Shown piece by piece: positions 12,019-12,806 of a DNA stretch of 32,432 nucleotides (position 1 is its first letter; each line of letters begins with the position of its first letter). This DNA comes from Escherichia coli. GTDB taxonomy: Bacteria; Pseudomonadota; Gammaproteobacteria; Enterobacterales; Enterobacteriaceae. The notes beneath the pieces were generated by a model. It searched no databases. It was not told where the DNA came from and saw only the letters and a program-made list of their open reading frames with translations. The stretch lies in the NCBI RefSeq assembly GCF_003334255.1, contig NZ_QOWU01000058.1. One strand, written 5' to 3'. The position numbers and the translations under genes are program-made.

Positions 12019-12249
12019 ATGAAAACATTACCCGACACGCATGTACGGGAGGTATCGTGCTGCCCGTCTCCCGTCACCATCTGGCAGACACTGCTCACCC
12101 GGTTACTGGACCAGCATTCCCTGATTTCCTCATCGATATCGAATAAGCACTCGTCGCAGAATTCTTTATCGAGTGAGAGCCTCTGTTCAAGGACGCTTCT
12201 TTTTTTTGTTGCAACGTGCACATCCCTTCATCTTTCCGCGCCTTTGTGA
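12019..12249 (+). pseudogene. cbtA: Truncated CbtA/YeeV-family toxin gene (only ~36 N-terminal codons retain homology)
   Basis: N-terminus MKTLPDTHVREVSCCPSPVTIWQTLLTRLLDQH resembles the CbtA/YeeV N-terminus. After ~12126 the frame continues into unrelated low-complexity sequence (SLISSSISNKHSSQNSLSS...) and lacks the rest of the ~124-aa toxin. Confidence 0.65.
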
Positions 12250-12806
12250 CCTCGTGATTTGGGGTACATGGAAAATGGGCGTAGCAAGCCTCAGCTAGAT
12301 AACTAACCGTAATAAAAGGGCTTTTCTGCGAGCAATGTAAGAGAAGGATAACTAGGCAGGTTGCAAGAAAGATAATCGTTTTGATAGATCAGTTTATCGA
12401 TATTGATCGTTAGTGCCGATCGATAAGAAGTGCGGAAACGTTAGACTCACCTCTGTTGCTCCATCATGATGATGGGGCTGTTGGCCCTCGAATCTATCTG
12501 TCTATTAGCATCGGCATGACAAACACCATTTGTTTCCACAACAAAAGACAATAGAAAAGTACATATGTACAAAAAGTGTGATTTATTCTGTCACTTCAGT
12601 ACTTCCTTTCGCCTAAGTTTGCCCGTAATAATTCCCCGTGCAGTACTATTGTTGCGACATAACAACATGAATTACATGGTAATAATAGATGTTTTCCTCT
12701 GCTGGTTCCTGTAAGGATCATGACTCCATACGACATCATTTTTAATTTTATACAGTTCAAAAAATCTACATGTGTCACAAATAATTTTACATTTGATAAT
12801 GTATAG

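What the first reader, a model, noticed from the sequence alone, without database searches (positions are those of the whole stretch)
12126..12560. Junction between the CP4-like module and the metabolic (DHAP shunt / KpLE2-like) module
Homology to the toxin family ends abruptly near 12126, followed by ~700 bp without convincing genes before mtnK. This is the likely recombination joint of a mosaic island. No obvious direct repeat, att-like sequence or IS end was recognised by eye, so the mechanism of fusion is unclear.
Basis: inference. Interest (0 to 1): 0.4.

Follow-up and report, generated by a model that had tools for sequence, protein, structure and literature searches.

The report
Deletion scar inside the leuX island

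Summary
The breakpoint is real, but it lies at window 12116-12119, not 12126. cbtA homology ends at 12118. Homology to the sequence upstream of mtnK in other E. coli starts at 12117, so the two overlap by only 1-2 bp (TT).

In Nissle 1917, NCTC9066 and EC17CM6 the same two flanks occur in the same order and orientation. They are separated by 11.9-14.5 kb, depending on IS content. That interval holds the rest of cbtA, DUF5983, DUF957, gene fragments, an Eco31I-type type IIS restriction-modification system, mcrCB, a GT2 remnant and the end of a conserved 55-aa ORF.

The window truncates both cbtA and the 55-aa ORF, so it is the derived, deleted form. Of 5,426 complete E. coli genomes, 454 carry this junction, 468 carry the undeleted right boundary, and about 160 have ISEc52 inserted close by.

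No tRNA, att-like repeat, IS end or Rfam RNA lies at the joint. This points to a single illegitimate (homology-independent) deletion.

The 738 bp with no annotated gene consist of the 55-aa ORF remnant, its conserved upstream region, and the published mtnK promoter region. An older mosaic boundary lies near 12436. Interest is low.

The parts
11561..11929 (+). Intact YeeU/CbeA-family antitoxin gene, now without a functional partner toxin.
   Evidence: Annotated as WP_001295723.1 in S88 and EC102. The same protein accession sits next to a full-length cbtA in Nissle.
12019..12118 (+). 5' stub of cbtA: 33 codons plus 1 nt of about 125 codons. It reads on out of frame to 12249 as a 76-aa ORF.
   Evidence: ORF list. 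Three-way alignment and translation against Nissle CbtA. PGAP pseudogene call 'missing C-terminus'.
12117..12118 (.). Deletion joint. The 'TT' could come from either parental flank (2 bp of microhomology with the closest cbtA allele, 1 bp with the Nissle allele).
   Evidence: BLAST end points: 12116/12118 on the left, 12117 on the right. Base-by-base alignment.
12119..12231 (-). Remnant (first 38 codons) of a conserved 55-aa CxxC...CxxC ORF. The joint removes its last 17 codons, and a T8 run at 12200-12207 (T7 in Nissle) also shifts the frame.
   Evidence: The intact ORF is at L002 5937..6104 on the minus strand. Homologues of 54-55 aa at 62-91% identity occur in Enterobacter, Lelliottia, Citrobacter, Klebsiella, Kluyvera and Yokenella. 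In Lelliottia and Yokenella it is followed by a full-length GT2 gene. It is intact next to mtnK in Citrobacter sp. On2M.
12232..12435 (-). Conserved upstream (probably regulatory) region of the 55-aa-ORF/GT2 unit. It contains three invariant GATC sites at 12387, 12405 and 12418.
   Evidence: 85-90% DNA identity to Lelliottia up to about 12435, and to Citrobacter. GATC positions.
12409..12435 (.). 27-bp segment GTTAGTGCCGATCGATAAGAAGTGCGG, kept in every context examined. Lelliottia homology ends at its right edge and GTEN_97 homology begins at its left edge. It marks an older mosaic boundary at about 12436.
   Evidence: It occurs once in the window.
12436..12856 (+). [quoted passage not shown] By distance from the mtnK ATG, the published P1 TSS falls near 12785 and P2 near 12640-12670. 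The CRP site and a putative MtnR palindrome lie around P1.
   Evidence: Huening et al. 2025, PMC12632272: 799-bp intergenic region in ATCC 25922, P1 at -72, P2 at -188/-218, promoter within 66-126 bp of mtnK. Promoter-like hits at 12659-12800. 37% GC. The positions are transferred by distance and were not mapped in this strain.
12857..14116 (+). mtnK (5-methylthioribose/5-deoxyribose kinase), the first gene of the DHAP-shunt operon.
   Evidence: ORF. RefSeq annotation WP_000132327.1.

Best explanation
The joint at 12117/12118 is the scar of a single intrachromosomal deletion of about 11.9 kb inside the tRNA-leuX genomic island of E. coli.

**Ancestral arrangement (shown).** It survives in Nissle 1917, ST131, NCTC9066, EC17CM6 and ATCC 25922-type strains. 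The order is: CP4-like module (... yeeU, cbtA, DUF5983, DUF957, gene fragments); Eco31I-type type IIS restriction-modification system (two methyltransferases and an endonuclease); mcrC-mcrB; GT2 remnant; 55-aa ORF; mtnK operon; yjhU and onward.

**The event (inferred).** One break fell in codon 34 of cbtA and the other in codon 38 of the 55-aa ORF. The ends were joined with only 1-2 bp of shared sequence. The mechanism is therefore illegitimate, homology-independent joining, such as end-joining after double-strand breaks or a topoisomerase or replication error. It is not site-specific, IS-mediated or RecA-dependent homologous recombination.

**Consequences (shown from sequence).** The CbtA toxin gene is truncated to a 33-codon stub, leaving an orphan antitoxin. 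The whole restriction-modification system and McrBC were lost in one step. The mtnK promoter region, at least 450 bp from the joint, is left intact.

**Spread.** The allele is now common: 454 of about 1,084 complete genomes that carry the mtnK upstream region.

**Confidence.** The stated 0.9 applies to the deletion-scar reading. The illegitimate-joining mechanism is less certain, about 0.7.
For: 1. **Collinear flanks.** Window 1044-12116 aligns with Nissle at 98.0%, and 12117-14306 aligns at 99.5%. The two stretches are 13,239 bp apart in Nissle, in the same order and strand. The same right-hand end point (12117) is seen against NCTC9066 (gap 14,505 bp, including ISEc12) and EC17CM6 (gap 11,916 bp, no IS).
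2. **Gene content of the gap.** It comes from RefSeq annotation of three unrelated strains.
3. **Polarity.** cbtA is full length (125 aa) in the undeleted strains and is a 33-codon stub here. The 55-aa ORF is full length in undeleted E. coli and in other genera, and is cut here. An insertion cannot restore two genes, so the window is the derived form.
4. **Wider synteny.** The flanking gene order, including identical protein accessions (for example WP_000823243.1 and WP_001295723.1), is the same for about 20 kb on each side in S88/EC102 and Nissle.
5. **No recombination signatures at the joint.** No tRNA, repeat or IS sequence is present.
6. **One shared junction.** It is identical in 454 genomes. 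The number of genomes at >=99% identity over 12127-12856 (473) is close to the number of junction carriers (454), while the undeleted genomes listed are at about 98.9%. This fits a single origin.
7. **Literature.** The Eco31I-identical system (EcoMI) and McrBC are placed on GI-leuX of ST131. EcoMI is absent from some ST131 clades, and its methyltransferase genes score as essential (PMC4659465). Only a deletion that removes the endonuclease and methylases together would be tolerated.
Against: - The left flank is only 98.0% identical to Nissle's, and 90-96% identical to the other undeleted strains. I did not identify an undeleted genome carrying exactly the window's CP4-like variant. The CP4-like module may have been exchanged by homologous recombination with paralogues before or after the deletion.
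- One or two bp of microhomology is close to chance, so the molecular mechanism of joining cannot be read from the sequence.
- A multi-step history (several smaller deletions) cannot be excluded. No intermediates turned up in the rows I inspected.
- Single origin is inferred from identical junctions and haplotype counts, not from a phylogeny.
Confidence: 0.9

Rival explanations
1. One reading: the joint is where an independent CP4-like integrative element and an independent metabolic (DHAP-shunt/KpLE2-like) element were fused by recombination, creating the mosaic.
For: GC content drops across the region: 53% on the left, 43% at 12119-12404, and 37% at 12405-12856. Gene content changes abruptly.
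Against: Both modules are already adjacent, in the same orientation, in at least 468 genomes. They are separated there by defence genes that the window lacks. The window truncates genes that are whole in those genomes. No att, tRNA or IS signature is present.
Confidence: 0.03
2. IS-mediated deletion: an adjacent deletion by ISEc52 or ISEc12, or recombination between two IS copies, removed the 12 kb.
For: IS elements are very active here. ISEc52 sits at about 12143-12146 in roughly 160 genomes, at 12248-12250 in AVS0456, and inside mcrB in Nissle. ISEc12 sits between the CP4-like module and the restriction-modification system in NCTC9066, and at 11511-11516 in S88.
Against: Both kinds of IS-mediated deletion leave an IS copy at the junction. 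Here cbtA sequence abuts 55-aa-ORF sequence directly, with no IS-derived base. No inverted repeats typical of IS ends are present.
Confidence: 0.04
3. The longer arrangement is derived: a 12-kb defence islet (restriction-modification system plus McrBC) inserted into a window-like ancestor.
For: Defence islets are often mobile. The deleted segment has a different GC content (42%).
Against: An insertion would have had to supply exactly the missing 3' three-quarters of cbtA in frame and the missing 17 codons of the 55-aa ORF. Both are conserved as whole genes in other loci and genera.
Confidence: 0.01
4. Assembly or sequencing artefact (a chimeric join).
For: None.
Against: The same junction occurs in 454 independent complete genomes from humans, pigs, cattle, poultry and the environment.
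Confidence: 0

Closest known systems
GI-leuX of ExPEC (ST131 EC958, ATCC 25922, Nissle 1917), with the DHAP-shunt operon at its end
   Same: Same island, gene order and flanks. mtnK-mtnA-ald2-transporter-yjhU(mtnR) is preceded by the published 799-bp 'intergenic' region (PMC12632272, PMC10986504). The Eco31I-type EcoMI system and McrBC are placed on GI-leuX (PMC4659465). The window retains 740 of the 799 bp (12117-12856).
   Different: The window lacks the 11.9 kb between cbtA codon 34 and the distal 59 bp of the 799-bp region. It therefore has no EcoMI/Eco31I system, no McrBC and no functional CbtA.
Short-homology-independent (illegitimate) deletions in E. coli, for example topoisomerase-mediated or alternative end-joining events
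   Same: Two unrelated sequences are joined with 0-2 bp of microhomology. There are no repeats and no mobile-element ends. Genes are truncated on both sides.
   Different: The mechanism is inferred from the scar only. Nothing in the sequence distinguishes between the candidate enzymatic routes.
CP4-like (CP4-44/CP4-57-type) cryptic elements with yeeU-cbtA (type IV toxin-antitoxin) modules
   Same: The left flank has the canonical gene order GTPase-Ag43-DUF905-DUF932-antirestriction-RadC/JAB-DUF987-YeeU-CbtA.
   Different: The module here ends inside cbtA. The usual downstream genes (DUF5983/YeeW, DUF957) and the element's own end are missing.
K-12 KpLE2 element
   Same: The right-hand genes yjhU, yjhF-I, sgc and yjhP-R are shared (the K-12 order is from my own knowledge).
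   Different: From my own knowledge, not tested here: K-12 has no mtnK operon and no CP4-like module at this position.

Membership tests
Deletion scar (derived allele of a longer collinear arrangement) | Both flanks occur in the same order and orientation in relatives, separated by extra DNA. | tested here: met
   against Nissle, NCTC9066 and EC17CM6. The gaps are 13,239, 14,505 and 11,916 bp.
Deletion scar (derived allele of a longer collinear arrangement) | Polarity: functional units that are whole in the long form are truncated at the joint in the short form. | tested here: met
   cbtA is 125 aa in the long form and a 33-codon stub here. The 55-aa ORF is whole in the long form and cut to 38 codons here.
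Integrative-element boundary (attL/attR at a tRNA gene) | A tRNA gene, or a direct repeat of a tRNA 3' end, at the boundary. | tested here: not met
   The window has no tRNA. There are no direct repeats in 11900-12900. A leuX 3'-end sequence recalled from memory has no match within 3 mismatches.
IS-mediated rearrangement | An IS copy or IS terminal inverted repeat at the junction. | tested here: not met
   The junction is cbtA sequence joined directly to 55-aa-ORF sequence. The only inverted repeat is a weak 18-nt palindrome at 12148-12175.
Homologous (RecA-dependent) recombination joint | Tens of bp or more of sequence similarity between the two parental break sites. | tested here: not met
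   The parental sequences share only 1-2 bp at the joint, and their flanks do not align.
CbtA toxin (type IV toxin-antitoxin system) | A full-length ORF of about 124-125 aa next to yeeU/cbeA. | tested here: not met
   Only 33 N-terminal codons remain, then an out-of-frame tail. It is annotated as a pseudogene.
Structured RNA or riboswitch upstream of mtnK | A match to a curated RNA family. | tested here: not met
   No Rfam hit at E<=1 in 11400-13100.
DHAP-shunt operon promoter region (Huening et al. 2025) | Sequence identity with the characterised 799-bp region of ATCC 25922-type strains, including the proximal ~250 bp that hold P1, P2 and the CRP site. | tested here: met
   The Nissle region between WP_000788354 and mtnK is exactly 799 bp. 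Window 12117-12856 aligns with 740 bp of it at about 98.9% identity. Promoter function itself was not tested in this strain.

The most novel reading that the evidence does not exclude
The most novel reading not excluded concerns the older boundary, not the deletion. The 27-bp segment at 12409-12435, with its three invariant GATC sites, is the point where three different genomic contexts diverge (Lelliottia, E. coli/Citrobacter, and GTEN_97). It could be either a Dam-dependent phase-variation switch for the 55-aa-ORF/GT2 unit carried by CP4-like islands, or a recombination-prone site at which cargo is exchanged.

A second reading is that the deletion allele was selected. It removes Eco31I-type restriction, McrBC and the CbtA toxin together, which would make these lineages (S88, a neonatal-meningitis strain from my own knowledge, and the type strain ATCC 11775, among others) more permissive to foreign DNA.
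Probability: 0.12. Interest if true: 0.4.

Novelty: new member of a known kind. Interest (0 to 1): 0.15.

Why it matters
It matters mainly for annotation and for reading this island correctly.

- **Annotation.** The 'mosaic joint' should not be used to infer how CP4-like elements capture metabolic cargo, because it is a secondary deletion.
- **Defence and toxin content.** About 42% of complete genomes that carry the mtnK upstream region (454 of about 1,084) lack the GI-leuX Eco31I-type restriction-modification system, McrBC and a functional CbtA, and keep an orphan YeeU antitoxin. This could affect DNA uptake and methylome comparisons between ExPEC lineages.
- **DHAP-shunt regulation.** The deletion ends about 450 bp or more upstream of the published mtnK promoters (P2 at about -188/-218). 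DHAP-shunt regulation is therefore probably unaffected.

Tried and rejected
- **tRNA or att search.** ARAGORN found none in the window or in four related loci. A leuX 3'-end pattern, recalled from memory, had no match.
- **Repeats.** There are no direct repeats at the joint, only a weak palindrome at 12148-12175.
- **Rfam scan.** A permissive scan of 11400-13100 found nothing.
- **Terminators and promoters.** No terminator-like sites. Promoter-like hits were not above the shuffled expectation (4 found, 2.7 expected).
- **The 78-aa ORF at 12596-12832 (minus strand), divergent from mtnK.** It keeps its length in Citrobacter. However, substitutions are spread evenly over codon positions (10/21/19, against 12/11/76 for mtnK), and it has no NCBIfam match. 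I rejected it as a gene.
- **WS3294A copy (100% identical up to 12118).** It turned out to be a paralogous CP4-like element at another locus, not the direct ancestor.
- **Scan of 100,044 species genomes for the 23-nt core pattern.** It found only one locus, in Citrobacter sp. On2M. That locus has the same 55-aa-ORF/mtnK adjacency, so the core is not a widespread att-like site.
- **Not attempted.** I did not look for an undeleted genome with exactly the window's CP4-like haplotype, and I did not build a phylogeny of carriers.

Full report
**Where the window comes from.** The window is E. coli chromosome from the tRNA-leuX island region. It is 99.9% identical to S88 except for an ISEc12 insertion that S88 carries and the window lacks. 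A 436-bp and a 161-bp stretch around the joint are 100% identical to the type strain ATCC 11775. RefSeq annotation gives this order: CP4-like module (GTPase, Ag43, DUF905, DUF932, antirestriction, JAB/RadC, DUF987, YeeU antitoxin, CbtA pseudogene), then mtnK-mtnA-aldolase-GRP transporter, then yjhU, yjhF-I, sgc and yjhP-R.

**Checking the observation.** The CbtA-family ORF starts at 12019. It is identical to intact CbtA for 33 codons and then reads out of frame to 12249. Nucleotide homology to cbtA paralogues ends at 12116-12118 in thousands of genomes. From 12119 to the mtnK ATG at 12857 there are 738 bp with no annotated CDS. In 11400-13100 or 11900-12900 I found no direct repeat, IS end, Rfam RNA or terminator. 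The window has no tRNA and no match to a leuX 3'-end pattern recalled from memory.

**What the joint is.** The sequence to the right of the joint (12127-12856) occurs in 1,083 of 5,426 complete E. coli genomes. Only about 450 of these have cbtA next to it.

- In Nissle 1917 the right-flank homology starts at window 12117 and continues leftward into different DNA.
- A 49-kb view of Nissle shows the same CP4-like module with a full-length cbtA, upstream of that DNA.
- The order in Nissle is: YeeU (the same protein accession as in S88), CbtA, DUF5983, DUF957, gene fragments, Alw26I/Eco31I/Esp3I-family adenine methyltransferase, cytosine methyltransferase, endonuclease, McrC, McrB (split by ISEc52 in Nissle), an 84-aa GT2 fragment, then mtnK.
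- NCTC9066 and EC17CM6 show the same arrangement.
- Window 1044-12116 aligns with Nissle at 98.0%, and 12117-14306 aligns at 99.5%. The two stretches are 13,239 bp apart in Nissle. The gap is 14,505 bp in NCTC9066 (which has an ISEc12) and 11,916 bp in EC17CM6, which has no IS in the interval.
- A base-by-base three-way alignment shows the left parent matching up to 12116-12118 and the right parent from 12117. At most 'TT' is shared, and the two parental sites have no other similarity.

**Polarity.** cbtA is whole (125 aa) in the long form and a stub in the window. The right break falls in a 55-aa ORF, MKRCARCNKKRSVLEQRLSLDKEFCDECLFDIDEEIRERRIITIRRLKDDNERKS.

- The ORF is intact in Nissle.
- It is conserved at 54-55 aa and 62-91% identity in Enterobacter, Lelliottia, Citrobacter, Klebsiella, Kluyvera and Yokenella.
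- In Lelliottia and Yokenella it sits just upstream of a full-length GT2 gene (312 and 323 aa) within or beside a CP4-like gene set.
- It is intact next to mtnK in Citrobacter sp. On2M.
- In the window only its first 38 codons remain (12119-12231, minus strand), and a T8/T7 length difference at 12200-12207 shifts its frame.

Two genes cut at one joint means the window is the deleted, derived form. An insertion origin for the long form is excluded.

**Frequency.**

| Probe | Result in 5,426 complete genomes |
|---|---|
| 161-bp probe across the joint | Covered >=80% in 454 genomes, at 99.4-100% identity |
| 161-bp probe across the undeleted right break site (Nissle) | Covered >=80% in 468 genomes |
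| Same probe, remaining matches | About 160 genomes, interrupted about 26-30 bp to the right of the joint position by ISEc52 (ST131-type) |

The number of genomes at >=99% identity over 12127-12856 (473) is close to the number of junction carriers (454). The undeleted genomes listed are at about 98.9%. A bovine isolate, EC102, carries the same island haplotype as S88, down to identical protein accessions. This fits a single event that has since spread. I did not build a phylogeny.

**Mechanism.** The following steps are shown directly:
- The flanks are collinear with the undeleted arrangement.
- The position of the joint is fixed to within about 2 bp.
- The content of the lost DNA is known from three annotated strains.
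- Two genes are truncated at the joint.
- No IS, att site or repeat is present.

The following steps are inferred:
- Joining was by illegitimate, homology-independent recombination, because only 1-2 bp are shared.
- RecA-dependent recombination is excluded by the lack of homology.
- IS-mediated deletion is very unlikely because it would leave an IS at the joint.
- Site-specific recombination is excluded by the lack of any core repeat.
- The sequence cannot tell end-joining after double-strand breaks from a topoisomerase or replication error.

**Biological context from the literature.** Forde et al. 2015 (PMC4659465) describe the GI-leuX system of ST131 EC958 as identical to Eco31I (GGTCTC). 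They report McrBC adjacent to it. Its methyltransferase genes score as essential, and the system is absent from ST131 clade B. Loss of the complete system in one deletion, as here, is the tolerated route. Huening et al. 2025 (PMC12632272) define a 799-bp intergenic region between WP_000788354 (the GT2 fragment) and mtnK in ATCC 25922. They map P1 at 72 bp and P2 at about 188-218 bp upstream of mtnK, with CRP activation and repression by MtnR (YjhU). They also note 52 coverage variants of the 799 bp among 1,847 genomes. The window retains 740 of the 799 bp (12117-12856). The promoters therefore lie about 450 bp or more from the joint and should be unaffected.

**What the 738 bp contain.**
1. 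12119-12231: remnant of the 55-aa ORF (minus strand).
2. 12232-12435: its conserved upstream region, about 85-90% identical to Lelliottia and Citrobacter, with three invariant GATC sites at 12387, 12405 and 12418.
3. 12436-12856: the AT-rich (37% GC) operon 5' region.

The 78-aa ORF at 12596-12832 is not coding, judged by its substitution pattern.

**An older boundary.** Homology to the Lelliottia island (55-aa ORF, GT2, McrCB) ends at about 12435. Beyond it, Lelliottia has CP4-like zinc-ribbon genes where E. coli and Citrobacter have the mtnK region. In GTEN_97-type E. coli (14 genomes at 80-90% identity), homology begins at about 12405-12409, preceded by a truncated TnpB/InsQ pseudogene. The 27 bp at 12409-12435 are thus common to all contexts. 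They occur once in the window. Among 100,044 species genomes they were found only in Citrobacter sp. On2M. The end of the CP4-like module itself lies inside the DNA that the window has lost.

**Verdict.** It is an ordinary structural variant of a well-studied island, and interest is low.

Noticed in passing
window 5543-12386: A 6,844-bp tract has no GATC site at all, against 22.9 expected from a trinucleotide Markov model. Other 4-mer palindromes are mostly much nearer expectation, and none is absent. The tract covers the agn43 coding sequence through cbtA'. GATC-free tracts of 6.2-7.4 kb also occur in Nissle, in the WS3294A paralogue and in the 90%-identical CP4-like variant of EC17CM6, and they overlap the CP4-like module in each. 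The Lelliottia and Yokenella loci inspected show only 1.7-2.6 kb gaps. GATC clusters flank the tract at 5507/5539 and at 12387/12405/12418. Forde et al. 2015 (PMC4659465) report GATC-free regions of >=1 kb in mobile elements in general. I did not find this long one described.
   Followed up: partly
window 12387-12421: Three GATC sites lie within 35 bp, about 155-190 bp upstream of the 55-aa ORF. They are invariant in E. coli, Citrobacter sp. On2M and Lelliottia jeotgali. This resembles Dam-dependent phase-variation switches such as agn43 and gtr. That comparison rests on my own knowledge and was not tested.
   Followed up: partly
L002 5937-6104 (Nissle); window 12119-12231: A conserved 55-aa CxxC...CxxC ORF is not annotated in RefSeq E. 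coli records, so the published '799-bp intergenic region' upstream of mtnK contains a probable small gene. In Lelliottia and Yokenella it immediately precedes a full-length GT2 gene.
   Followed up: yes
L002 5012-5930 (Nissle), inside the DNA deleted from the window: The 84-aa 'glycosyltransferase family 2 protein' WP_000788354.1 is the N-terminal remnant of a gene of about 312 aa. DNA homology to the full-length Lelliottia gene (85%) continues about 660 bp beyond the annotated stop.
   Followed up: partly
window 12143-12146 and 12248-12250 (positions of insertions in other strains); L002 1824-2993: ISEc52 has inserted independently at three or more places within a few kb of the joint in different lineages: about 160 ST131-type genomes, AVS0456, and inside mcrB in Nissle.
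   Followed up: partly
window 11511-11516: S88 and EC102 carry an ISEc12 (IS21 family) insertion here, between DUF987 and yeeU, that the window lacks. The 6-bp overlap of the two alignment blocks looks like its target-site duplication. In EC102 the ISEc12 is itself split by ISEc23.
   Followed up: no
L005 5488-6031 (GTEN_97): In 14 divergent genomes the mtnK operon (about 97% identical) is preceded by a truncated TnpB/InsQ pseudogene and an ompC-like porin gene instead of the 55-aa ORF/GT2 unit. The break lies at window-equivalent 12405-12409.
   Followed up: partly
L012 1776-11783 (Citrobacter sp. On2M): A Citrobacter genome carries the 55-aa ORF, the mtnK operon, yjhU, yjhF and yjhG at 93.8% identity to the window. 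Homology ends exactly at the stop codon of the 55-aa ORF, and no GT2 gene follows.
   Followed up: partly
window 12200-12207: A homopolymer run is T8 in the window and T7 in Nissle and other strains. The length also seems to vary among deletion carriers, since some have 729-bp matches against 730.
   Followed up: no
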